Shown here: positions 16,852 through 38,172 of the stretch, in pieces
Position numbering within the stretch: the stretch's first letter is position 1
How the letters are laid out: every line of letters starts with the position of its first letter
Sequence record: PV889368.1
Direction: 5' to 3' (one strand)
From: a phage
DNA: 40,015 bases
The notes under the pieces: model-generated
The model's input: the letters and a program-made list of their open reading frames with translations, nothing else
The model's database searches: none
Told to the model about the DNA's origin: nothing
Made by a program: the position numbers and the translations under genes

Positions 16852-17124
16852 TTAATCGAACTGAACGGTATCTTTCAGCTCACGACGCATAGCAATCGCA
16901 GAGTCGAGAGTGTCAGAGCAATACTGGAGACCCTTGATAAACCCGGCAATGAACGCATCGCTGTAGCCCTGCTGCTTGAGGAGACTGATAGCTCCCATCT
17001 TCTCAGCGTAGCTTGCGTTGAACAGTACGTGCAGAAACTGGATGGCAGACTGGGAGATGTTAGGGACATCAAGTCTTTCTTCCTGTAACTGCTTAACAAC
17101 GTTTTCAATAGCATTAATCGCCAT
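16852..17124 (-). CDS. gp6.5-position protein (90 aa)
   Basis: ATG start directly downstream of the phi6.5-like promoter; positional. Confidence 0.5.
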   Translation of the reverse strand: MAINAIENVVKQLQEERLDVPNISQSAIQFLHVLFNASYAEKMGAISLLKQQGYSDAFIAGFIKGLQYCSDTLDSAIAMRRELKDTVQFD

Positions 17125-17185
17125 CTTGAATCTCCTCTTTAAGTTAAGACTAAAGTCTATCTTATAGTCATATCTTAGGGCCTAA

Positions 17186-17208
17186 AGTCCCTATAGTGAT
17201 AGTTTAGT
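17186..17208 (-). promoter_or_regulatory. Phage RNAP promoter (phi6.5-like)
   Basis: Minus strand CACTAAACTATCACTATAGGGACTTTAGG. Confidence 0.85.
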
Positions 17209-17334
17209 GTTTCACCTATGGATGACTGTTGGATTGATAGGATATGACTATCGGTTAGACTCAGTGTTTAGGGCGGTTGTTCGACCCGAACCACTTGTAC
17301 ATGCAGTAAAGGGCCAGAAGTCCGGCCCAGTAGA

Positions 17335-29048: not shown

Positions 29049-31730
29049 TTAAGCGAATGCAAAGTCTGAAGACAAGATGTCTTCGATATTCAGTTCACCT
29101 TTCTTCGGAAGCTCAGGCAACTTGTCGCGCTGACTCTCGTGAAGCTGGTATTCAAACTGCTCGTAGAAGTCAAGCAGCACATCGTTGTCGCGGTATGTCT
29201 CTACCATCGTCTCACGGACACCACGGAACAGATACTCAGCGTCAGCCGGGATGGTCCCGAAGCTATCGTGAATCACTGCGAATGACATCACACCATACTT
29301 GCGGTGCGTGTGGACTACAGTCTTGCGGAGGTGGCTACCATCTTGTGAGTGGACGAAGTTCGGGCTAATGCCTGACTCCTGCTTGTGTTTGTCCAGCTCT
29401 TTCTTTGTGCCTTTGTTGACTGTAGGCTGAAGGTTGAATGACCCTAAGAACATCAGGTTCAGACGAGTGGTATCCTTCTTGCGGTATTCCTGCCATACCG
29501 GGAAACCATCAGGTGTGACCCAGTGTACCGGAAGGCAAGGCTTCAGGATTTCACCAGTCTTCTTGTCCTTCACTTCAGCAGCCAGCAGCTTGGCAGCGCC
29601 TTGAAGCCACTTCATCGCGTCAACCGCAGCAACTACGGTCACACTCACAGCCTCCCAAATCATCTTGGCCATGAAGCGAGACGCTTGGCTTGGCTCAGTG
29701 AACATAGCGCCAGACCCTGAGTCAATCGCTGGCATTACGATGTCCTCGTAAACTTGGTCTGCGAAGCCGTACTCTTTCGACCCGTAGGCCAGAGTCATGA
29801 CCGAACGCTTAGTGACCTTGCGTGACATACCGTAAGTCAGCCACTGACGGGCCAGCTCTCGTGTCCCCAGCTTGAGACGCTCGGTAATCTCACCTGTTTT
29901 CTTGTCCTCGTGAGTCACCACCTCGTTGTCCGTACCGTTAACCAGCAGGACTTTAAGTTCCTCCTCAATGCGGTCGGACACAATGCGGTAGATGTCTTGG
30001 ACCTTACCGGATGGCGTCAGGTTTACTGCATGTCCACCGATGTGGTCACGAAGCATCGCGCTGAAGTGCTGAATCCCAGAGCATGACCCATCGAACGCTA
30101 TCGGAAGCGAGCATGAGTAAGACAATCCGTGGTGCATTACGCCAGCATACTCGAAGCAGAACGCAAGGAAGCAGAACGGAGAGTCTAACTTGCCCCACCA
30201 CTCAATGCTATCCATCGGTGCTTTGGCAGCAGCCATGATGTTGTCGTGGTTGTCTTCCACCCATTTGATGCGCTCCTCGAAGGTGACTTTATCGACACCA
30301 GCACAGTTTGCACCGTGGACCTTCAGCCATTTAAAACCATCAGCGCCAATAGGCTTGCCGACTGCCAGAGTCAGGAGACCCTTCTGCATGTCGTTGCCCT
30401 GAGGGTTGAACATCGGTACAGCGTAGACGCGGCCGCGCCAATCCATGTTATATGGGAACCATATGGCCTTGAACTGAGAGAACTTGTTTGCTTGGTTAAC
30501 GATAAAGCTCAGTGATAATCTGCGTGACTGTCTGGCCTTCTCGCGGCGATAGATACCAGCAGCAGCCTTCTTCCATGCCTTGAGTTCTTCTTCAGTCTCA
30601 CCCGCATAGTCCTCAGGCTTCAGTGGTTCCATCTGAGGGATGTCATCAATAGGCGTGTTGTTCAGCTTCTCGACCATGTTCACAACGTCCAGGACCTTCT
30701 TGTTCACTTTCCAAGGTGTACTCTGAATGATGTTCACAGCGTCGTAGACTTCAGGCATGTACACGTCTTCGTAACGTGCTACCGCAGACTTAGACCCTAA
30801 GCGAATCAGTGGTAATGGTCTGCGACCTTTGGCCCAATACCCACCACCTACGACACCCGTCCACGGCTTAGGTGGAACGACGCAAGGCTGATAGACTGGT
30901 GCGATACCCGCAAGGCTGAATCCACGTTGTGCCATCTTCTTTACCCAGAAGTCTGACAGGTGGACCATCTCAACGTCAGCCGCCGCATTGCCAGCACCAT
31001 AACGCTTAAGCTCAACCAGTTGTGTAGACTGAATGACAATCTCAAGCATCTTGATGCCAACGTGTACCGCCTCGGTAGGACTCCAAGTTCCCCAAGCATC
31101 TTCCAGTTGGCCCTGCTCCAGCATGGATGTCTCAACCGCTTGCATGTAGGCTTTCTTGTAGGATGCCCCGGCTCGCTTGTTCAGGTTCTCAGCTATCGCC
31201 TTCTTGAAGTGCTCCTGCTCCTTGTCACGGATGCGACCGAAGCGGATTTCATCTTCAAGAGTGCGACCTATCGCGGAGGCCATAGGTGTAATCGGTATCC
31301 CTTCAGGCTTGACCAGCTTAGAGAGAATGACCTTCAGTATGATAACCGCAGCAGACTCGCAGGAGATGCGCAGAGAGCGGTCCTTGACAGCCTTCCCTTC
31401 AGTGCTCAACATGGTGAACGCTACGCTCGGACGAGAGATTGACAGCTTCCCGTCTGTGCCTTCATGCCACTCCTTGACGGCTTGCGCAATCTTAGGGACC
31501 AGAGTCTGCATCAAAGGCTTGGCGACCTGATTGTCTGCCAGTTCCCCGCGCTCCGTCTGGCGCTCAAGGTTCTTGATGAAACGTCGCTCGCCTTCAGTGT
31601 ATGCCTCATGCTCAAGCTGAAGCTGTTTGACTGCAAGGTCTTGCCCGTAGTGGTCAGCCAGCAGGTTAAACGGCTCAATGGCGTTCGACACATCAGAGAA
31701 GTCGTGTTTGTCAATAGAGATGACGCTCAT
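29049..31730 (-). CDS. Single-subunit DNA-dependent RNA polymerase (gp1)
   Basis: Collinear with T7 RNAP across 893 aa, e.g. FSDV...PFN.LADHYG, RFGRIRD, PCVVPPKPWTG, AIWFPYNMDWRGRVYA, DGSCSGIQHFSAMLRD, VTKRSVMTLAYGSKE, HDSFGT, C-terminal FAFA. Confidence 0.97.
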   Translation of the reverse strand: MSVISIDKHDFSDVSNAIEPFNLLADHYGQDLAVKQLQLEHEAYTEGERRFIKNLERQTERGELADNQVAKPLMQTLVPKIAQAVKEWHEGTDGKLSISRPSVAFTMLSTEGKAVKDRSLRISCESAAVIILKVILSKLVKPEGIPITPMASAIGRTLEDEIRFGRIRDKEQEHFKKAIAENLNKRAGASYKKAYMQAVETSMLEQGQLEDAWGTWSPTEAVHVGIKMLEIVIQSTQLVELKRYGAGNAAADVEMVHLSDFWVKKMAQRGFSLAGIAPVYQPCVVPPKPWTGVVGGGYWAKGRRPLPLIRLGSKSAVARYEDVYMPEVYDAVNIIQSTPWKVNKKVLDVVNMVEKLNNTPIDDIPQMEPLKPEDYAGETEEELKAWKKAAAGIYRREKARQSRRLSLSFIVNQANKFSQFKAIWFPYNMDWRGRVYAVPMFNPQGNDMQKGLLTLAVGKPIGADGFKWLKVHGANCAGVDKVTFEERIKWVEDNHDNIMAAAKAPMDSIEWWGKLDSPFCFLAFCFEYAGVMHHGLSYSCSLPIAFDGSCSGIQHFSAMLRDHIGGHAVNLTPSGKVQDIYRIVSDRIEEELKVLLVNGTDNEVVTHEDKKTGEITERLKLGTRELARQWLTYGMSRKVTKRSVMTLAYGSKEYGFADQVYEDIVMPAIDSGSGAMFTEPSQASRFMAKMIWEAVSVTVVAAVDAMKWLQGAAKLLAAEVKDKKTGEILKPCLPVHWVTPDGFPVWQEYRKKDTTRLNLMFLGSFNLQPTVNKGTKKELDKHKQESGISPNFVHSQDGSHLRKTVVHTHRKYGVMSFAVIHDSFGTIPADAEYLFRGVRETMVETYRDNDVLLDFYEQFEYQLHESQRDKLPELPKKGELNIEDILSSDFAFA

Positions 31731-31799
31731 ACTTAAAGTCCTTGTTATTAGTCTTTCACTTAGAGTCTCTTTGGTCTTTCACTTGGAGTCTTAGACCTT

Positions 31800-31822
31800 G
31801 AGTCCTATAGTGATAGTTAAGT
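31800..31822 (-). promoter_or_regulatory. Phage RNAP promoter immediately upstream of the RNAP gene
   Basis: Minus strand GACTTAACTATCACTATAGGACTCAAGG, about 75 nt upstream of the gene 1 ATG; the leader carries a duplicated AAGTGAAAGAC. Confidence 0.7.
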
Positions 31823-31827
31823 CAGAA

Positions 31828-32220
31828 TTACTTGCATATCAGAGGGTTAGCGTGAAGATGACTGAAGTCACCGTGAGTCGTGTGCTTGATGGTCGACCGT
31901 TGGTCTATCGCCTTCCAGCCTGAGACCAGAAGTTTACCGTCGTCTGTGATTGGTCGTCCACCATACGCCAGATACATCAGCTCGGACTTATGGCCCTCGG
32001 CCCGGAGTCGTGCCTGAAGTACACGGTCTCGCTCCTGCTGTTGACGCTTAGTGTGTGATGAGTGGCGGTGTACATAAGTGCCCTTTCTCCCGGTCTTCTC
32101 CCAGTAGTTGCGGCCACGCGAGTCAGTTCCAACATACTTCCACTCTACGCCGTTCTTATCAGTGAATTTGCGAAACGCTAGGGTTGAGTCCATTGCGTGT
32201 ACCAGATTTAACATATTCAT
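31828..32220 (-). CDS. Hypothetical early protein (130 aa) where T7 has the gp0.7 kinase; no kinase motifs seen
   Basis: ATG with GGGAG RBS; TAATG overlap with the upstream ORF. Confidence 0.6.
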   Translation of the reverse strand: MNMLNLVHAMDSTLAFRKFTDKNGVEWKYVGTDSRGRNYWEKTGRKGTYVHRHSSHTKRQQQERDRVLQARLRAEGHKSELMYLAYGGRPITDDGKLLVSGWKAIDQRSTIKHTTHGDFSHLHANPLICK

Positions 32221-32417
32221 TACAGTTTACTCCCAAGTGTTGCTATATCCCAGACGTTCGCTAAGTTACGCGTGAATCGTCCGTTAGGTTGACGCACAGT
32301 CCAGCGACCCAGACGTGCATAGTTGAATTTATAGACTTTACATGCCTTGTTGATGTCTCTCACCAGCACGTAGGCGATAAGTCCATAGCCTATGGCTATC
32401 AATAGTGCAGATATCAT
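32220..32417 (-). CDS. Small early protein with an N-terminal transmembrane helix (65 aa)
   Basis: ATG start; hydrophobic N-terminus MISALLIAIGYGLIAYVLV. Confidence 0.5.
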   Translation of the reverse strand: MISALLIAIGYGLIAYVLVRDINKACKVYKFNYARLGRWTVRQPNGRFTRNLANVWDIATLGSKL

Positions 32418-32420
32418 AGC

Positions 32421-32588
32421 TTACCCCGCCAGTCCAATCCATATCAGTAGACCGCGCACGACCCCTACCGGAGAGAATATTATATCCACTGCCAGCCAGC
32501 CAAGACGCAGTGCATTCCCATCAGCTATGACCGCAGTCAGCCAAGACAGAATGATGGTGACGTAAAGTGCGATGACTGTAAGTTTCAT
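32421..32588 (-). CDS. Small early membrane protein (55 aa, two predicted TM helices)
   Basis: Not in the ORF track; ATG 32588 with AGGAG RBS; MKLTVIALYVTIILSWLTAVIADG...VGVVRGLLIWIGLAG. Confidence 0.45.
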   Translation of the reverse strand: MKLTVIALYVTIILSWLTAVIADGNALRLGWLAVDIIFSPVGVVRGLLIWIGLAG

Positions 32589-32594
32589 AGTTAA

Positions 32595-32660
32595 CTCCTA
32601 TCAATTTAAGTGATAATCTTTGAGGCCACATATCAGTTAGATGACCTCTCGTCTATCACT
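32595..32660 (-). promoter_or_regulatory. Conserved early intergenic element, copy D
   Basis: Shares ...gaggccac...atcagt...gacct...tctatcactc... with copies at 33045, 33785 and 34375; lies in the 5' leader of the downstream ORF. Confidence 0.4.
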
Positions 32661-32661
32661 C

Positions 32662-33039
32662 CTACACTTCCACTGCGATGGTTGTCATCTTGGTCACAGT
32701 AAGACCACCAGCAAGCTCAACAGCATAGCGTATCGCCTCGTCTTTGGACCTGAAATCTTTTCCAGCAAGGTGGTAAATATCGCCGTTTATTACTTTGGTC
32801 GGCTTGCGGCTGACTGCTATGGCGTTGCTGAGGGAAAGCTCGCCTTTCGACCACTGAGAGTGCCAGCGAAGCACGCTCTTACTGGATACGTTGAAGTCAC
32901 TTGCCACCATCTCAAGCATGGAGTCAAGTCGAGAGGTGCCATATTGAGGCTGGCGCACCAAGTCGTATGCCTGTGCTACTCGGATTTTAAACTCTACAGA
33001 ATACTGATTGCGGGTCTTAGGTTGTGCTGGTGTAAACAT
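32662..33039 (-). CDS. Early protein with a transposase-type helix-turn-helix-like N-terminus (125 aa)
   Basis: ATG with AAGGA RBS; YSVEFKIRVAQAY....YGTS......VSSKSVLRWHSQW resembles IS3-OrfA-type HTH (from memory, unverified). Confidence 0.55.
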   Translation of the reverse strand: MFTPAQPKTRNQYSVEFKIRVAQAYDLVRQPQYGTSRLDSMLEMVASDFNVSSKSVLRWHSQWSKGELSLSNAIAVSRKPTKVINGDIYHLAGKDFRSKDEAIRYAVELAGGLTVTKMTTIAVEV

Positions 33040-33044
33040 TTGGC

Positions 33045-33125
33045 ATTCCTTCTGGTTAATTTAAATTAAGTGACAATCAGTCAGGCCACCAGCATTGATG
33101 ACCTGTAGTCTATCACTCAGCGTGC
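33045..33125 (-). promoter_or_regulatory. Conserved early intergenic element, copy C
   Basis: ttaatttaaattaagtgacaatcagtcaggccacc...gacctgtagtctatcactcag. Confidence 0.4.
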
Positions 33126-33262
33126 AAGCTGCCGAGTATACTCTTGCGGCCCTTATAGACCGCTTTCAGGAGACGCATAGCCACATCGTGGTTTAACTGC
33201 CCGGTCTTGACCATAAGCCGGGCGTTGTTGACGTGATGCTGGCAGAGACCATAAGTTACCAT
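33116..33262 (-). CDS. gp0.4-like small protein (48 aa; T7 gp0.4 is an FtsZ inhibitor)
   Basis: Not in the ORF track; ATG overlaps the ocr stop (TAATG); MVTYGLCQHH...AMRLLKAVYKG..SILGSLHG resembles T7 gp0.4 ..VQYGLTAQ...AMAQLKELYEN..AIALESAE. Confidence 0.55.
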
Positions 33263-33771
33263 TACTCGCAGTCCTCTTCAGCAGCCGCAGGGTCGAACAC
33301 TACGTTATCGTTGACGTCTTCGACCTTCAGGTGGCGACCAATCGCATAGTGGTCTTTGGCACATGCGGTAGCGACCTCAAGAGACACAGCTTGCTCAATT
33401 ATTGCTCCTGTTTTAGCGTCAACTACCCAATACTCAGCCTCTTCGTCGCTCTCTTCAGCCTCAAACCATACCACATCCGAGCTATTAGACACATCGTTAT
33501 ACAGTGCCTCATAGATACGAGCTTGCAGTATACGCGTCACATCCTTGGTCTCAGGCATCAGCCCAGAGTCTTCAAACTCATGGTCAATACCATCAGCAGC
33601 CATCACCGTGAAAATCTCGTGGTAATAGTGCGGTACCTGACCGTCTACGACCTCATGCAGCGCATCATGGTAGTCGTCACCTTCAGCTATTTCGTCGTAC
33701 TGAATGCGCTCGTTAAATGCTTCAACAGTTGCAGCCAGCAGGTCATAGTATGCGCTAGCGTTACGTTCCAT
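33262..33771 (-). CDS. ocr: Ocr-like DNA mimic (gp0.3 family), 169 aa with an extended C-terminus
   Basis: [53 protein letters not shown] closely matches T7 Ocr [53 protein letters not shown]; about 50 aa longer than T7 Ocr (117 aa). Confidence 0.9.
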   Translation of the reverse strand: [169 protein letters not shown]

Positions 33772-33784
33772 AGTTATATCCTCT

Positions 33785-33860
33785 CAAAGTTAATTATGTG
33801 TGTGTTAGTGACTATCAGTCAGGCCGCTATGAGTCTAACGACCTGTAGTTAATCACTAGA
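33785..33860 (-). promoter_or_regulatory. Conserved early intergenic element, copy B (ocr leader)
   Basis: ctctcaaagttaattatgtgtgtgttagtgactatcagtcaggcc...gacctgtagttaatcact; near-identical to copy A. Confidence 0.45.
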
Positions 33861-34134
33861 AGGCTACATCTTTAAGCGCGTTCTTGAGCATGGTCTCTAT
33901 GTTTGAATCATTCACGTTGGTCATATACCCACCCACCTCTTGCACTTCCGCATTGTTGCTGGTGATTAATTCCTGCGCCTTTTTATGGCCCACTCCATGA
34001 TAGCAATCCCACACGAAGCGCTTGAACGTTAGACCCTTCTCTTTGTAGAGCGCGGCGGAGTCCGCCACTCCACGCAATAATCTTGATTCTAACTCCTTGC
34101 GGAAGGCGTCTGCTGTAGCTTTGTTCAGTCTCAT
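33856..34134 (-). CDS. Hypothetical early protein (92 aa) upstream of ocr
   Basis: ATG with AAGAGGA RBS, 12 nt after the upstream ORF. Confidence 0.6.
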   Translation of the reverse strand: MRLNKATADAFRKELESRLLRGVADSAALYKEKGLTFKRFVWDCYHGVGHKKAQELITSNNAEVQEVGGYMTNVNDSNIETMLKNALKDVAF

Positions 34135-34145
34135 AATGAATCCTC

Positions 34146-34352
34146 TTAGTAAATGTAAGTTTCGACACTATCAATGATTACGAAATGCTGTGGGCGGCGA
34201 CTATTGAAGTCTACAAGCATTACTTGCAACCACTTACCGTTAATCTTAACTTTGTAGTTAGAGTAAGCCTGGCCTTTAACCATATCTTCAGTAGTTACTT
34301 TAACCTTGCGGCATTCCAGTTTAACAGTCTTCTCTTTATCTGCGTAGAACAT
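34146..34352 (-). CDS. Hypothetical early protein (68 aa), first gene of the early operon
   Basis: Start moved to ATG 34352 (MFYADKEK...) with GAGAGGA RBS inside conserved element A. Confidence 0.55.
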   Translation of the reverse strand: MFYADKEKTVKLECRKVKVTTEDMVKGQAYSNYKVKINGKWLQVMLVDFNSRRPQHFVIIDSVETYIY

Positions 34353-34374
34353 ACTAAATCCTCTCAAAGTTAAT

Positions 34375-34450
34375 TGTGTGTTAGTGACTATCAGTCAGGG
34401 CCTTCAGATGTAGACTCAAAGACCCTGTAGTTAGTCGCTATCGGCGCACA
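34375..34450 (-). promoter_or_regulatory. Conserved early intergenic element, copy A
   Basis: cctctcaaagttaattgtgtgttagtgactatcagtcagggcc...gaccctgtagttagtcgct. Confidence 0.45.
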
Positions 34451-34550
34451 TTAAGAGTTTATCCAGATTGTTAAAGAGCATTCGCGTTGGCTGTCGTCGC
34501 CGTGCTATCCCGTTTCAGTGTTGGGACTCACCGTCGTTTCAGTGTGGTAC

Positions 34551-34579
34551 AGCTTACAGCTTTTAAAGGAGGCTGTCAA
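34551..34579 (-). promoter_or_regulatory. Candidate host sigma70 early promoter (A-type), proximal
   Basis: Minus strand TTGACA, 17-nt spacer, TAAGCT, then GTACCAC; resembles T7 A2/A3 (TTGACA...TAAGAT). Confidence 0.5.
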
Positions 34580-34697
34580 CCTGTTATTCTTTTATGCGGT
34601 GAGTGACCGAATTCGACTCACAGCTGGTGCCTTATCCTTGGCTGGTCTCGGGCAGGCTTCTCGGTTCCTATCCCTACGCCATCTTGCTACGTGGTAC

Positions 34698-34727
34698 ATA
34701 CTACTTTAAGTCGGTACTACTTGTCAA
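34698..34727 (-). promoter_or_regulatory. Candidate host sigma70 early promoter (A-type), distal
   Basis: Minus strand TTGACA, 18-nt spacer, TAGTAT, then GTACCAC; same downstream GTACCAC as the proximal copy. Confidence 0.5.
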
Positions 34728-34939
34728 CTACTTTCTGTCATCTGCCTGTTGTTCGTATGACTTATCAGGCTGTCTACTTAACCGGGATGACCCGGCGTCT
34801 TCACTATCCGGTTGTTGCCGTGTCGTGTTGACGGAAGCTATTAAGCCACAGTCGATACCTATAGTCAATAGTCAATTTGAAATAATATTGATTAAGCTAT
34901 CGTCGGCCTCATAGTGACTAAGAAGATAGTCTTTGACTA

Positions 34940-35460
34940 ACATGTATTTGACCTTAAGTCTATAGCTTTGTGTCTATTAACTGTAGGTCTTTGACTGTAG
35001 GTTAATCGGATTAACTGGTAGATGACGTAAGGTTGATGACTTGAGGTGATAGGTTGATACAGATAGAGACTCAGAGAAGACAAATAGTCCCAACCTATCG
35101 TCTCAGCCCCAACCGATAGTCATGACCTATCGTTGACCTGAAGTCTTGACCATCGGTCCAACCTTATGATAGACTGGGGTGGGCCTTTGGTCTGGACTAA
35201 AAGAGGGCCTATGGGGAGACTTGAGGTTCTTGAACTGTGAGATGTGGTCTCAAACTTTTGGTCCAAAACTCATCGAAGACTGTAGGTGGCAGCTACTGTA
35301 GGTCAAGGACCGTAGGTCAGGCGACACTAGGATAGACCAATAAGTAGGATGACCCTAAGTGAGCTTCTATTAAGGTGTTACCTAAAGTCCTTGACTACAG
35401 TAGCTAAGGTCAGTAGAGTGAGTCTTTATCCACGTACTGACCTTAGGTCTTCAGCCTTCG
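34940..35460. repeat. Non-coding region rich in short dispersed repeats; likely contains the genome termini / concatemer junction
   Basis: Many copies of CTGTAGGTC, ACCGTAGGTC, CCTTAGGTC, CCTAAAGTCC and similar within ~500 bp lacking ORFs, placed between the phiOR/19.5 end and the early promoters, as with T7 terminal short repeats. Confidence 0.5.
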
Positions 35461-35509
35461 CCATAACCGATCATACTACCTCCTTTCATGAATCGTTACC
35501 ATGATTGCG

Positions 35510-35668
35510 TTAATTACACTGAGAGACCAGAGAACATACGAGAGTCTCGACCCTCCCGACCCACTGACTTCCAGCAGTAACGCCAGCAGCAAGTAGAACA
35601 GCAGCAAGAAACCTGTATGTAGCTCGATTGGTCGCCAGAGCTTTAAGTACAGCTTTGGTCTTTGCCAT
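35510..35668 (-). CDS. gp19.5-position small protein (52 aa)
   Basis: Not in the ORF track; ATG 35668 with AGGAGG RBS, downstream of the phiOR-like promoter; hydrophobic middle segment. Confidence 0.4.
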   Translation of the reverse strand: MAKTKAVLKALATNRATYRFLAAVLLAAGVTAGSQWVGRVETLVCSLVSQCN

Positions 35669-35816
35669 ATGCTACATACCTCCTGTATCTATGGTCGGTG
35701 ACTATCTGTATTGGAGGGTGATATTAATCATAATCCCTCCGACTATATGGAGACCTAGAGTCCTTACCTATATGCTAACTTTTAGTCGGCATACTATAAG
35801 GTCCCCCCGGTCCCCC

Positions 35817-35839
35817 CATCCCTATAGTGATAGTTAAGT
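35817..35839 (-). promoter_or_regulatory. Phage RNAP promoter (phiOR-like) near the right genome end
   Basis: Minus strand CTTAACTATCACTATAGGGATGGGGGG, flanked by the direct repeat GGGGGGACCGGGGGGACC. Confidence 0.8.
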
Positions 35840-35852
35840 TAACCTATTGAAT

Positions 35853-36395
35853 TTACTTGTGGTTTCTATGGGTCCTATCACGCTTAGGGGACCGTCGGTT
35901 TACTGCGTATTCCTTGTGCTTCTCAGTGCGTAGAGCATCAAGCCACACCTCTAGTTCCTCTATTGAATCTGAGGTCTTCGTGAAGCACTTACCTTGTAGG
36001 CGCAACTGAGCGCGATACTTTCCGGTAGGCTTGAAAAAGCTGATACCTTTGGGTAGACCATTAGTCTCGCCACCTCCTGAGTTCCATCTGTTCTCTAATG
36101 CTGTTACTAACCTGTAGTTATCTGGCCTGTCGTCAAGTCTATCACCATTGATATGGTCAACCATCATGCCAGAAGGTATACGACCCACTACTAGGCTGTA
36201 GATGATTCTGGCACGCCTATAGCGGCTACCAAGAACCTTCACGATTGCGTACCCAGACGGATGGACTGAATGTCCCATGACCTCGCCTGGCTTCTTGTTA
36301 GAGCCTTTATAGGGCTTCTTGCACACCAACTCACCATCTACATAAGCATAGTGATTAAAGAGGGCCACCCTGTCGATGGCCTTCTGTTTACTCAT
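35853..36395 (-). CDS. HNH homing endonuclease with an AP2-like DNA-binding domain (180 aa)
   Basis: HNH motif region VDHINGDRLDDRPDNYRLVTALENRWN; GISFFKPTGKYRAQLRLQGK resembles an AP2 domain; ATG with GGAGGA RBS 14 nt after the terminase stop. Confidence 0.8.
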   Translation of the reverse strand: MSKQKAIDRVALFNHYAYVDGELVCKKPYKGSNKKPGEVMGHSVHPSGYAIVKVLGSRYRRARIIYSLVVGRIPSGMMVDHINGDRLDDRPDNYRLVTALENRWNSGGGETNGLPKGISFFKPTGKYRAQLRLQGKCFTKTSDSIEELEVWLDALRTEKHKEYAVNRRSPKRDRTHRNHK

Positions 36396-36408
36396 GTTTC
36401 TCCTCCTA

Positions 36409-38172
36409 TTAGTGGAACGTAACGTATGACCCTAGTCCCATCTCGTCGTCCGTATCGTGAGTTACCCGGACCCCATTGTCCCAGAACTCAGTGTGGATGG
36501 ACTCGAATCCTTTACGTGGGTTCTCCATCTGTTCCTCCAGCCATTCCTCAGTGACTTCACGTTCGCCTTTGTTGGCATCCTTAGCCATAGACTCAACGAA
36601 GAACTGTACACCGATAGCCAGCGCATCAAGTCGGTCATCGTGTGCCAAGGCTCCACGTTCACGAGAGATACGGGTCATCTGGTAGAAGAGAGAGTAGATA
36701 GGGTTACGAACACCATCCTTATCAGAGGCTGACTGATAGTCTTGGACGATAGCAGCAGCGTTGACGATAAGTCGGTGAGACCCCATGATAGGCTCCAGAA
36801 CGTCGCAGATGCGGAGTTCCTTCTGACCCTTACTCTTCACTTCTGTTACAGCAGCAGGATGGATACGGGCCGCTACAGGCTTGAATAGCTCAAGGTACAT
36901 ACCATCACCGAAGTTACCCTCAATGACGTATTCGTTGACCTTCCACTTACGACCAATCTTAGCCAAGGCTTCCAGAGTAGAGTCTTCATAACCACCACGC
37001 ATACCACCCACTTCCATAGCGAAGATGTAGCCGTTGAGCTGATACAGTACCGCATATCCAGTTTCATCCTTACCACGACCACTGGGGTCAATGACCAGAA
37101 TCTTCTGGGTGTATGAACTGAAGGCAGAACCTACAGTCTGATACGTGTGGTACGAGTCACCCATAAGTCCAACGTTAGGAACGTCCTCACGCTTGTTCTG
37201 AGGGTTCGGCAACCATTGGTAGACCATTGGGCTGGACTCTGGGTCCAAGTCTGCTACGATAAGGTCACGTAGCTTCAGAGGGTACTTCTCAGCATCACTC
37301 AGGTTCGGGTTAAGCATGAACTGTAGAGCGAAGCCAGCTTTACCGTATGACAGCTCACGTTCCTTCAGGTCCGTATCATCAAATCGTACCTCATCGGTCG
37401 GACGCCAGTAGAAGGACTCAGGGTCCTCTTCTAGTTCTGCCTGAAGCATAGGAGCCAGACGGTCGCCGTAAGACTGCCAGTCCTTCCTGTCGCGTGGATA
37501 ACGAGCGGGCCAAATAGTAGTGGTATACCCACGACCTTCCAGCTCACGATACAGGGTCATCTCGTTCTGAGGAGTACCCAGATAGATGATTGTACCTCCC
37601 GGCTTCAGGATAGCGTCGAACTCTTTCACAAGCTCTGACAGTCGGTCTCGCGCAGCCTGAGTCGCAGAGTTGTTAGGAACCTCCACGTCATCGGCAATCA
37701 GGATGTCAGCACGGCTACCAGTCAACTGACCAGTGATACCAACTGACTTAACAGAAGGTGAGTGGTCTGGCTTGGCTGGCCCAACGTCGAAGCTGATAAC
37801 CGCATCCCGCTGTCCCTGCTTAGGTTTGAGTTCCTGAAGCTGAGGCATGAGGTCGATGATTCGCTTGATGAAGATGGAGTTAGCATCGGCTCGCTCCTTT
37901 GAGGCCGACACAATCATGAACTTCAAGTCTGGGTTGTTCCATAGCTTCCAGACCACGAAGGCACACGTAATGAAGGACTTCCCGATACCACGGAACGCCT
38001 GTAGGATGAAACGCCTGTTGTCCCCAGCCGATAGTTTCTTCGCCATGTCAATCTGACAGCGAGTCGGGACTGGGAGTGACAGAGCTTTCCATAGAACGAA
38101 CAGGAAGAACACGAAGTCTGCCTTCATACGGGCAGTCATTAGCGCCTGACGCGCCACTAAGTCTTTACTCAA
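36409..38172 (-). CDS. Terminase large subunit (gp19)
   Basis: [128 protein letters not shown] match T7 gp19; probable TTG start with AAGGAGG RBS. Confidence 0.95.

What the first reader, a model, noticed from the sequence alone, without database searches (positions are those of the whole stretch)
33856..34352. Two unknown early genes upstream of ocr, where T7 has no genes
In T7 the first early gene is 0.3 (ocr). Here two ORFs (68 aa, MFYADKEK...; and 92 aa, MRLNKATADAFRK...) with good RBSs precede ocr, directly downstream of the candidate sigma70 early promoters. The first genes to enter the cell in T7-like phages are typically anti-restriction or host-takeover functions, so these are candidates for uncharacterised anti-defence or host-modulating proteins. 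I could not place either sequence in a family I know.
Basis: partly seen in the sequence, partly recalled or inferred. Interest (0 to 1): 0.65.

Follow-up and report, generated by a model that had tools for sequence, protein, structure and literature searches.

The report
Two accessory early genes before ocr
Two small genes of unknown function sit at the first-entering end of a K1F-like (T7-family) phage genome, just before its anti-restriction gene ocr; both look like real, swappable early genes, and one is a sequence orphan shared almost unchanged with a different phage subfamily, so they are reasonable but untested candidates for proteins that disarm the host.

Summary
On the minus strand, a 68-aa ORF (ORF-A, 34146-34352) and a 92-aa ORF (ORF-B, 33856-34134) lie between the sigma70-type early promoters with the first RNase III hairpin and an ocr homologue (33262-33771). 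T7 has nothing in this slot. The window is a Kayfunavirus (K1F-like) genome.

Genes upstream of ocr are already annotated in this genus (K1F gp0.1 and gp0.2). The slot varies between relatives: gp0.2, gp0.2+ORF-B, ORF-B alone, ORF-A alone, or ORF-A+ORF-B here.

ORF-B belongs to PHROG 9817 (function unknown). It occurs in 62 deposited phages of at least five genera. It often sits next to ocr or an S-AdoMet lyase. Its dN/dS is about 0.25-0.34. AlphaFold gives a confident helical model (pLDDT 93.8) with no relative among solved structures.

ORF-A is a sequence orphan: one near-identical cluster among 1.84 billion representatives, and none in deposited phage, E. coli or plasmid records. The same 229-bp cassette, running from one ribosome-binding site to the next, occurs at 95-98% nucleotide identity in otherwise unrelated Slopekvirinae-like coliphage contigs, again just downstream of strong early promoters. 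It is AT-rich and under purifying selection.

Function is untested. Host-directed counter-defence or takeover is the best guess. These are new members of a known kind.

The parts
34422..34581 (-). Homologue of the T7 A3 promoter region and the leader up to the first RNase III site. TTGACA at 34578-34573, 17-nt spacer, TAAGCT, then GTACCAC as in T7 A3.
   Evidence: blastn alignment to T7 712-871, 70.7% over 164 nt, E 4e-11. T7 A3 is annotated at 750. Sequence read. Promoter activity is inferred.
34698..34727 (-). Sigma70-type promoter match (TTGACA-18-TAGTAT, 10/12), positional equivalent of T7 A2.
   Evidence: Consensus scan. The flanking stretch 34793->34745 aligns with T7 539-586. This is a pattern match only.
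34369..34440 (-). RNase III-type hairpin (lower stem, internal loop, upper stem), positional equivalent of T7 R0.3, immediately 5' of ORF-A.
   Evidence: Fold -22.9 kcal/mol, z -3.1. One of four repeated copies. Aligns with the T7 R0.3/R0.5/R1.1/R1.3 regions, sharing GAGTGATAGACT..AGGTC...GGCCT..TGAT..TCACT. Cleavage was not tested.
34139..34367 (-). ORF-A cassette: SD (AGAGGATTTAGT), the CDS, then TAAGAGGATT, which is the SD of whichever gene follows. This is the only DNA shared with the Slopekvirinae-like loci.
   Evidence: blastn of window 31000-37000 against loci L004-L015: the only match in L004-L008, L010-L012, L014 and L015 is 34367->34139/34119, at 94.8-98.3% identity. Boundaries were inspected.
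34146..34352 (-). ORF-A, 68 aa, pI 9.3, 8.1 kDa, predicted beta-rich. A sequence orphan.
   Evidence: One cluster only in 5.8 G and 1.84 G protein searches. dN/dS 0.07-0.09. GC 38.2% against 50.0% for the genome, in the lowest 0.5% of 207-nt windows. AlphaFold pLDDT 48.
34141..34145 (-). SD (GAGGA) of ORF-B, directly after the ORF-A stop codon (34146-34148). The arrangement would allow translational coupling.
   Evidence: Sequence read. The same TAAGAGGATTCATT leader precedes ORF-B in yong1, PM129 and Peacock, which lack ORF-A.
33856..34134 (-). ORF-B, 92 aa, pI 8.8, member of PHROG 9817. Five helices plus a small beta hairpin.
   Evidence: PHROG E 1.1e-25. 62 phage records. 78 clusters. pLDDT 93.8, pTM 0.82. 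dN/dS 0.25-0.34.
33793..33858 (-). Second RNase III-type hairpin, between ORF-B and ocr.
   Evidence: Fold -24.5 kcal/mol, z -4.7. Repeat family D1/D2/D4. Alignment with the T7 sites.
33262..33771 (-). ocr homologue, 169 aa (ocr domain at residues 7-96 plus a C-terminal extension, as in K1F gp0.3). This is the downstream landmark of the finding.
   Evidence: Pfam PF08684 E 9.5e-32, PHROG 2568 E 3.7e-55. K1F gp0.3 is annotated at 1114-1623 = 169 aa.

Best explanation
ORF-A and ORF-B are two independent, single-gene accessory cassettes in the class I (pre-early) region of a K1F-like phage.

Proposed expression. After the leading ~0.9 kb of DNA enters the cell, host RNA polymerase starts at the A1-A3-type promoters. 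Its transcription pulls in the rest of the early region. The polycistronic RNA is cut at the RNase III hairpins that flank the ORF-A/ORF-B segment. Both ORFs are then translated from strong Shine-Dalgarno sites. ORF-B may be coupled to ORF-A, because the ORF-A stop codon abuts the ORF-B SD. They would therefore be the first two phage proteins made, ahead of Ocr.

Proposed function. The proteins act on host components rather than on core phage processes. Most likely each neutralises a strain-specific host defence, as a counter-defence protein. General host takeover is the close second.

Proposed evolution. The cassettes are gained, lost and exchanged by recombination at the short conserved leader, SD and RNase III sequences that bound each early gene. 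ORF-A moved recently in this way between Slopekvirinae-like coliphages and Kayfunavirus.

What is shown and what is inferred. Shown here: gene reality, position, cassette boundaries, patchy distribution, cross-lineage transfer, purifying selection, and absence of known homologues or folds. Inferred: transcription, processing and translation (by homology with T7), and the host-directed function.
For: Position and signals. The promoter region and hairpins are homologous to T7 A2/A3 and to the T7 RNase III sites. SD sequences precede both ORFs.

Coding. dN/dS is 0.07-0.09 for ORF-A and 0.25-0.34 for ORF-B, against 0.18-0.23 for ocr. ORF-B has 78 full-length clusters and a pLDDT 93.8 model.

Accessory status. 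The slot holds gp0.2 in K1F, gp0.2+ORF-B in PM129 and Peacock, ORF-B alone in yong1, ORF-A alone in L013, and ORF-A without any ocr in L009.

Transfer. The 229-bp ORF-A cassette is 95-98% identical in loci that share no other DNA with the window. Those loci resemble Slopekvirinae phages PAS7 and P64441. There the cassette also follows three strong sigma70-like promoters. ORF-A is a compositional outlier.

Neighbourhood. ORF-B homologues are the first early gene directly before an S-AdoMet lyase, followed by ocr, kinase and RNAP, in L031-L034. They stand before a SAM-lyase-sized gene in Przondovirus Mera, and next to ocr in Kayfunavirus, AP10 and phiCFP-1.

Literature. Pre-early genes of Autographiviridae encode host-takeover and anti-defence proteins (PMC11680406). 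[quoted passage not shown] Accessory regions concentrate counter-defence genes (bioRxiv 10.1101/2023.04.06.535777).
Against: There is no functional evidence of any kind. Neither protein resembles a characterised anti-defence or takeover protein by sequence or fold. Both are basic (pI 9.3 and 8.8), so they are not Ocr-like DNA mimics. The ORF-A structure could not be predicted (pLDDT 48). Guilt by association in a region where every gene is small and early is weak evidence. Many T7 class I genes, such as 0.4, 0.5 and 0.6, are not anti-defence genes. The promoters are consensus or homology matches only. The dN/dS for ORF-A rests on 8 substitutions.
Confidence: 0.5

Rival explanations
1. General host takeover rather than counter-defence. 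One or both proteins inhibit a housekeeping host function such as cell division, cytoskeleton, transcription, nucleoid proteins or nucleases. T7 gp0.4 (FtsZ), gp0.6, gp0.7, gp2 and gp5.5 work this way.
For: The genes have the same size class and the same early-region position as T7 0.4-0.6. Both are basic small proteins, compatible with binding nucleic acid or an acidic host protein. ORF-B is conserved across at least five genera on different hosts: Escherichia, Klebsiella, Yersinia, Serratia and Citrobacter. That breadth fits a conserved host target better than a strain-specific defence.
Against: Both genes are missing from many close relatives that infect the same species. ORF-A is extremely rare yet recently transferred, which is more typical of arms-race genes. 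There is no similarity to any known takeover protein.
Confidence: 0.25
2. Inter-phage competition. The proteins exclude or handicap co-infecting or resident phages and satellites (superinfection exclusion, anti-prophage or anti-satellite action) rather than acting on cellular immunity proper.
For: ORF-A is shared by two unrelated podophage lineages that evidently co-infect the same hosts. Being made first would suit exclusion. The accessory-gene literature lists antagonism of other viruses as an alternative role (bioRxiv 10.1101/2023.04.06.535777).
Against: Neither protein has a membrane segment or lipoprotein signal of the kind common in exclusion proteins (sequences; GRAVY -0.4). There is no direct evidence.
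Confidence: 0.08
3. ORF-B is a nucleic-acid-binding regulator of the phage's own early programme, for example mRNA stability or processing, or DNA entry. ORF-A is a neutral hitch-hiker or mainly a translated leader that delivers ribosomes to the downstream gene.
For: The ORF-A cassette ends in TAAGAGGATT, so it always supplies or overlaps the SD of the following gene, whatever that gene is. A weak profile hit links ORF-B to the N-terminal DNA-binding domain of T4 DNA ligase (5wfy/6dt1, E 0.17-1.4). Both proteins are basic.
Confidence: 0.07
4. One or both ORFs are not functional genes, being chance frames or decaying remnants.
For: ORFs of this length are common by chance in the window. ORF-A has no detectable homologues beyond near-identical copies and a low-confidence structure prediction.
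Against: Both have SD sequences and sit on the coding strand with tight spacing. In ORF-A, 8 of the 10 variable DNA sites across 13 copies are third codon positions, and in the two copies not chosen for protein identity 5-6 of 7-8 changes are synonymous. The ORF-A frame is intact in all 19 cluster members across two phage lineages. ORF-B has 78 clusters, 14 invariant columns and a pLDDT of 93.8.
Confidence: 0.03

Closest known systems
T7-group class I (pre-early) genes: T7 0.3 (Ocr), 0.4, 0.5, 0.6, 0.7; T3 0.3 (SAM lyase)
   Same: Same genome position, between the host-type A promoters and the phage RNA polymerase gene. Same strand. Small size. Each gene or gene pair is bounded by RNase III hairpins that are homologous in sequence and shape to the T7 sites. 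Non-essential or accessory character.
   Different: No sequence or fold similarity to any T7 protein (tblastn against T7 gave best E 0.36-0.98). They occupy a slot before ocr that is empty in T7. Both are basic, unlike the acidic DNA mimic Ocr.
K1F gp0.2 family (the usual occupant of the slot before ocr in Kayfunavirus)
   Same: Same slot directly after the first RNase III hairpin. Similar size (81-84 aa). Probably beta-rich (my reading of the sequence; not predicted here). Promiscuous across phage families: 119 records including N4-like Gamaleyavirus and Phapecoctavirus. Unknown function.
   Different: Not homologous to ORF-A. BLASTP finds only an 11-residue match, and hhalign probability is 2.5%. 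In this window ORF-A stands in its place.
PHROG 9817 (uncharacterised phage protein family)
   Same: ORF-B matches it end to end (residues 1-92 on profile positions 1-93 of 94, E 1.1e-25). Homologues are 88-95 aa and lie in about 40-kb T7-like genomes.
   Different: Nothing differs. ORF-B is a member. The family has no assigned function.
Phage accessory regions and accessory genes (Silas et al., bioRxiv 10.1101/2023.04.06.535777); leading-region anti-defence loci (PMC12455610)
   Same: A variable set of small, fast-exchanging genes between conserved flanks, co-located with known anti-restriction genes (ocr, SAM lyase), and horizontally transferred.
   Different: Neither ORF is among the tested genes that I could check. 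orf24, from an ocr-containing accessory region, starts MFKHEIYTDC and is unrelated. No peptide match was found in the supplements held as text. No phenotype is known.

Membership tests
T7-group class I (early) gene | Lies between the host-RNAP A promoters and gene 1 (phage RNAP), on the same strand. | tested here: met
   Promoter-region homology to T7 539-586 and 712-871. RNAP (893 aa) at 29049-31730 on the minus strand. ORFs at 33856-34352 on the minus strand.
T7-group class I (early) gene | mRNA bounded by RNase III processing hairpins of the T7 type. | tested here: met
   Hairpins at 34369-34440 and 33793-33858 have z-scores of -3.1 and -4.7, show the stem/internal-loop/stem shape, and align with T7 R0.3/R0.5/R1.1/R1.3. 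Cleavage itself is not testable here.
T7-group class I (early) gene | Transcribed by host RNAP and translated in the first minutes of infection. | not testable with these tools
   Needs time-resolved RNA-seq, Ribo-seq or proteomics.
PHROG 9817 (applies to ORF-B) | Significant full-length match to the family profile. | tested here: met
   E 1.1e-25, residues 1-92 on profile positions 1-93/94. 62 phage records by tblastn.
Ocr / DNA-mimic anti-restriction proteins (PF08684, ArdA-like) | Match to the ocr profile, and a strongly acidic protein that mimics DNA. | tested here: not met
   No Pfam ocr hit for ORF-A or ORF-B. pI 9.3 and 8.8. Only the next gene (33262-33771) is ocr.
K1F gp0.2 family (applies to ORF-A) | Detectable sequence or profile homology. 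| tested here: not met
   BLASTP gives an 11-residue match, E 0.063. hhalign probability 2.5%.
Structurally characterised anti-defence or other proteins (applies to ORF-B) | Fold similarity to a solved structure. | tested here: not met
Structurally characterised proteins (applies to ORF-A) | Fold similarity to a solved structure. | tested here: inconclusive
   The model is too poor to search (pLDDT 48, effectively no alignment depth). PDB sequence search gave best E 1.3.
Phage accessory gene in an accessory region (operational definition of Silas et al.) | Variable presence or absence among closely related genomes, between conserved flanks. | tested here: met
   The flanks (promoter region and first hairpin; ocr) are 85-99% identical in PM129, Peacock, yong1, L009 and L013, while the slot content differs.
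Anti-defence protein | Restores phage growth on a host carrying a defined defence system, or binds or inactivates a defence component. | not testable with these tools
   No match in PADLOC, which holds defence-side models. No exact match to six short peptide strings taken from ORF-A, ORF-B and K1F gp0.2 in the EVADES supplementary tables held as text, where at least one table carries sequences. This is a weak negative only.

The most novel reading that the evidence does not exclude
ORF-A is a newly spreading counter-defence (or defence-trigger-masking) protein with no relatives. It travels between phage subfamilies as a minimal cassette running from one Shine-Dalgarno site to the next, and always lands first in the early operon. 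ORF-B is a new-fold partner of the anti-restriction genes, for example protecting Ocr- or SAM-lyase-carrying phages from host systems that sense those anti-restriction proteins (PARIS- or Ronin-like), or blocking a restriction class that Ocr does not cover. Either would define a new anti-defence family and mechanism.
Probability: 0.25. Interest if true: 0.75.

Novelty: new member of a known kind. Interest (0 to 1): 0.45.

Why it matters
The first proteins a T7-like phage makes decide whether it survives host immunity. This slot lies ahead of ocr and is filled with different genes in near-identical phages, so it is a natural place to look for uncharacterised counter-defence functions. ORF-B offers a well-populated family with a confident, apparently novel fold that repeatedly neighbours ocr or SAM lyase. 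ORF-A offers a rare orphan that has recently jumped between two phage subfamilies as a 229-bp unit. That makes it a clean case for studying how single early genes are exchanged at ribosome-binding-site microhomologies. Both are small and easy to test. If they do block defences, they would be useful for phage-therapy engineering. If not, the result is ordinary annotation of accessory early genes.

Tried and rejected
**ORF-A as a diverged K1F gp0.2.** Both share a 'SNY.V' motif and the same slot. Rejected: hhalign probability 2.5%.

**The 'CNP C-terminal domain' note on the yong1 homologue**. No support from Pfam on 75 family members.

**Pfam, NCBIfam and PADLOC for both proteins.** Only sub-threshold noise.

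**Rfam on 30000-36000.** No family matched, so the RNase III hairpins are not an Rfam family.

**More ORF-A relatives.** None in IMG/VR, JGI metagenomes or GTDB genomes. None in INPHARED phages by tblastn or blastn. None in complete E. coli genomes or in PLSDB plasmids.

**Literature.**
- JSS1_004 is a gp0.7 kinase and is irrelevant.
- orf24 of Silas et al., from an ocr accessory region, starts MFKHEIYTDC and is unrelated.
- No peptide or DNA string of ORF-A, ORF-B or gp0.2 occurs in the supplements of Silas et al. or EVADES.
- No paper mentions K1F gp0.2.

**The afdb50 fold library** was unavailable.

**Fold search of the ORF-A model** was not attempted, because pLDDT 48 would give meaningless matches.

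Full report
**What the window is.** All long ORFs lie on the minus strand. The 2-kb region around the finding matches 422 deposited phage genomes. The best matches are Kayfunavirus (K1F-like, Studiervirinae) at 88-93% identity. Window position ~35242 aligns with base 1 of phage Peacock and with the start of the T7 terminal repeat. The record is therefore a circularly permuted, reverse-complemented ~40-kb genome. Its left (first-entering) end runs from ~35242 down to the RNA polymerase gene at 31730-29049.

**Checking the observation.** ORF-A (34146-34352, 68 aa) and ORF-B (33856-34134, 92 aa) are present as described.
- Each has a Shine-Dalgarno sequence at canonical spacing.
- The ORF-A stop codon is immediately followed by the ORF-B SD (TAAGAGGATTCATTATG).
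- The next gene is an ocr homologue of 169 aa, the same length as K1F gp0.3.
- Upstream, 34581->34422 aligns with T7 712-871 (promoter A3 through the R0.3 region), and 34793->34745 aligns with T7 539-586.
- A 10/12 sigma70 match lies at 34727-34698, the A2 position.
- In T7 the first gene after A1-A3 is 0.3 at position 925.

Open frames of this length are common by chance in this window. Gene status therefore rests on conservation and selection, described below.

**RNA signals.** A ~70-nt element occurs four times in the early region: 34369-34440, 33793-33858, 33055-33118 and 32595-32661.
- Each copy folds into a lower stem, an asymmetric internal loop and an upper stem, with z-scores from -2.7 to -4.7.
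- Each aligns with the regions of the T7 RNase III sites R0.3, R0.5, R1.1 and R1.3, sharing GAGTGATAGACT..AGGTC...GGCCT..TGAT..TCACT. I took the T7 site positions from memory of Dunn & Studier 1983; the conserved motif in those stretches is what the alignment shows.
- Rfam has no model for them.
- One hairpin precedes ORF-A and one follows ORF-B, with none between them. By analogy with T7, the two ORFs would be released together as one processed mRNA.

**ORF-B.**
- It matches PHROG 9817 (unknown function) end to end (E 1.1e-25).
- tblastn finds it in 62 of 50,697 deposited phages. The hits I inspected belong to Kayfunavirus, Apdecimavirus, Teetrevirus, Przondovirus and Ermolevavirus.
- A profile search of 5.8 billion proteins finds 78 clusters. 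Apart from two 51-aa fragments they are 88-95 aa long, and none is named.
- Fourteen alignment columns are invariant.
- dN/dS against three Kayfunavirus relatives is 0.25-0.34, similar to ocr at 0.18-0.23.
- AlphaFold2 on a 75-sequence alignment gives pLDDT 93.8 and pTM 0.82, with five helices and a small hairpin.
- In BFVD only its own family is significant. Three uncharacterised phage proteins follow at E 0.03-0.45.
- Pfam, NCBIfam and PADLOC give nothing.

The position of ORF-B inside the early region varies.
- It lies before ocr in Kayfunavirus.
- It lies after ocr and 0.4 in AP10 and phiCFP-1.
- It is the first substantial gene after the leader, directly before a 156-aa gene in the SAM-lyase position, in Przondovirus Mera.
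- It is the first gene, directly before an S-AdoMet lyase followed by ocr, kinase and RNAP, in metagenomic contigs L031-L034.
- It is the first gene after a non-coding gap in 45-kb contigs L028 and L029.
- In eight of eleven contexts inspected it is within one gene of ocr or a SAM lyase, counting the unconfirmed SAM-lyase-position gene of Mera and the 'protein 0.3' of phiCFP-1.

**ORF-A.**
- It has no Pfam, PHROG, NCBIfam or PADLOC match.
- An exhaustive HMMER scan of 1.84 billion representatives returns only its own cluster. The word-indexed search of 5.8 billion returns the same single cluster, with 19 members at 90% identity or more.
- It is absent from IMG/VR, JGI metagenomes, GTDB genomes, deposited phages (protein and DNA searches), complete E. 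coli genomes and plasmids.
- The exact protein is nevertheless encoded on at least 14 assembled contigs.

The key result comes from a blastn of window 31000-37000 against those loci.
- Three of the loci are Kayfunavirus relatives: L009 and L013, plus the window itself.
- In the other ten loci the only shared DNA is window 34367->34139 (or ->34119), at 94.8-98.3% identity.
- Those ten loci resemble Slopekvirinae coliphages PAS7 and P64441.
- The shared segment starts at the SD (AGAGGATTTAGT-ATG) and ends at TAAGAGGATT, which is the SD of whatever gene follows.
- Downstream neighbours differ: DUF7421, an 83-aa gene, a 168-aa gene, 42- and 46-aa genes, ocr, or ORF-B.
- In the Slopekvirinae-like locus L006 three strong sigma70-type promoters (11/12, 11/12 and 10/12) lie within 720 nt upstream, with only a 40-aa ORF between them and ORF-A.
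- So in both lineages ORF-A is the first substantial gene of the host-transcribed early operon.

Several further observations bear on ORF-A.
- Its GC content is 38.2% against 50.0% for the genome, in the lowest 0.5% of 207-nt windows, and is also below the ~45% of the Slopekvirinae-like early regions.
- Of ten variable DNA sites among 13 copies, eight are third codon positions.
- Eleven of those copies were selected for an identical protein, so only L004 and L005 are unbiased. They give 5-6 synonymous against 2 non-synonymous changes, dN/dS 0.07-0.09. The counts are small.
- The Slopekvirinae-like copies are more diverse than the three Kayfunavirus copies, which differ by at most 1 nt. This suggests, but does not prove, transfer into Kayfunavirus.
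- The structure could not be predicted: pLDDT 48, with beta strands after residue 27.

**The slot is a known hot spot.** K1F is annotated with gp0.1 and gp0.2 before 0.3. The gp0.2 family occurs in 119 phage records, including N4-like Gamaleyavirus and Phapecoctavirus.

Slot content in the genomes compared:

| Genome or locus | Slot content |
|---|---|
| K1F | gp0.2 |
| PM129, Peacock | gp0.2, hairpin, ORF-B |
| yong1 | ORF-B |
| L013 | ORF-A, hairpin, ocr |
| L009 | ORF-A plus a DUF7421-like gene, no ocr |
| This window | ORF-A, ORF-B |

ORF-A is not a diverged gp0.2 (hhalign probability 2.5%). The native ORF-B leader (..AACAACCTAAGAGGATTCATT-ATG) is kept in the window. ORF-A has been joined to it at the TAAGAGGATT motif. 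That fits recombination at SD and leader microhomology.

**Interpretation.** The following points are shown here:
- Both are real protein-coding genes.
- Both lie in the pre-early operon.
- Both are accessory.
- They are independent of each other.
- They move horizontally, ORF-A strikingly so.
- Neither has a known relative by sequence, and ORF-B has none by fold.

From established T7 biology I infer that host RNAP transcribes them while it pulls the DNA in, that RNase III processes the RNA, and that they are the first proteins made. This background on transcription-coupled entry and class I genes is my own knowledge, and is summarised in PMC11680406. The function is an inference. The following features are the hallmarks of counter-defence or host-takeover genes (PMC12455610; PMC11680406; bioRxiv 10.1101/2023.04.06.535777):
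- first-in position;
- patchy distribution among near-identical phages;
- cross-lineage transfer;
- for ORF-B, repeated adjacency to ocr or SAM lyase.

I put roughly 0.9 on 'real, expressed accessory early genes'. I put about 0.75 on 'host-directed' overall (counter-defence plus takeover), and about 0.5 on counter-defence specifically. Both proteins are basic, so an Ocr-like DNA-mimic mechanism is excluded.

**Comparison and novelty.**
- ORF-B is an existing but uncharacterised family. The new information is the confident, apparently novel fold and the association with anti-restriction genes.
- ORF-A is a new orphan whose cassette-like spread between Studiervirinae and Slopekvirinae-like phages is, as far as I could find, unreported.
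- The kind of thing, namely variable accessory genes in the leading region of T7-like phages, is well known. I therefore rate the finding as a new member of a known kind, of moderate interest, and readily testable.

Noticed in passing
window 34139-34367 versus L004-L008, L010-L012, L014, L015: The single-gene ORF-A cassette has junctions exactly at Shine-Dalgarno motifs (AGAGGATTTAGT...TAAGAGGATT). It is shared at 95-98% nucleotide identity between a Kayfunavirus and Slopekvirinae-like coliphage contigs that share no other DNA in the 6 kb compared. This suggests gene exchange by SD or leader microhomology.
   Followed up: yes
window 32662-33039 (-), 125 aa: Another early-region ORF bounded by RNase III-type hairpins. 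It has no counterpart in PM129, Peacock or yong1 by blastn but is partly present in L013. It gives only weak HTH_Tnp_1 / transposase-HTH hits (E ~0.06). It may be a further accessory early gene with a helix-turn-helix.
   Followed up: partly
window 33262-33771 (-): The ocr homologue is 169 aa. The ocr domain covers residues 7-96, and a ~70-residue C-terminal extension is absent from T7 Ocr (117 aa). K1F gp0.3 has the same length. The role of the extension is unknown.
   Followed up: no
window 35853-36395 (-), 180 aa: This ORF lies between the large terminase (36409-38172) and the right genome end, and its sequence reads like an HNH/AP2-type homing endonuclease. It is followed at 35815-35845 by a phage-RNAP-type promoter (TTAACTTAACTATCACTATAGGGA), the phiOR position. 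No family scan was run on it.
   Followed up: no
L022 (K1F) 785-1030; L025-L027: The K1F gp0.2 family, the usual occupant of the slot before ocr, also occurs in the early regions of N4-like Gamaleyavirus phages (~3 kb from the end) and in ~150-kb Phapecoctavirus phages. It is another promiscuous early gene of unknown function.
   Followed up: partly
L031-L033 (metagenomic T7-like contigs): These early operons carry an ORF-B homologue, an S-AdoMet lyase and an ocr gene in a row, followed in L031 by the kinase. Both known anti-restriction strategies are thus stacked behind the ORF-B family gene.
   Followed up: partly
window 34175-34189: An EcoBI recognition motif (TGA-N8-TGCT) lies inside ORF-A. 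It is the only match to the four Type I motifs checked (EcoKI, EcoBI, EcoAI, EcoR124I) between the left end (~35242) and the RNAP gene.
   Followed up: no
L028 677-907: A Tad2-like (anti-Thoeris) gene sits near the end of a 45-kb phage contig, shortly upstream of the early gap that is followed by an ORF-B homologue.
   Followed up: no
window ~17032-17300 and 34797-35100: These are the only other places where 207-nt windows reach ORF-A's low GC (38% or less). The second is the A1-promoter and left-end non-coding region. The first was not examined.
   Followed up: no
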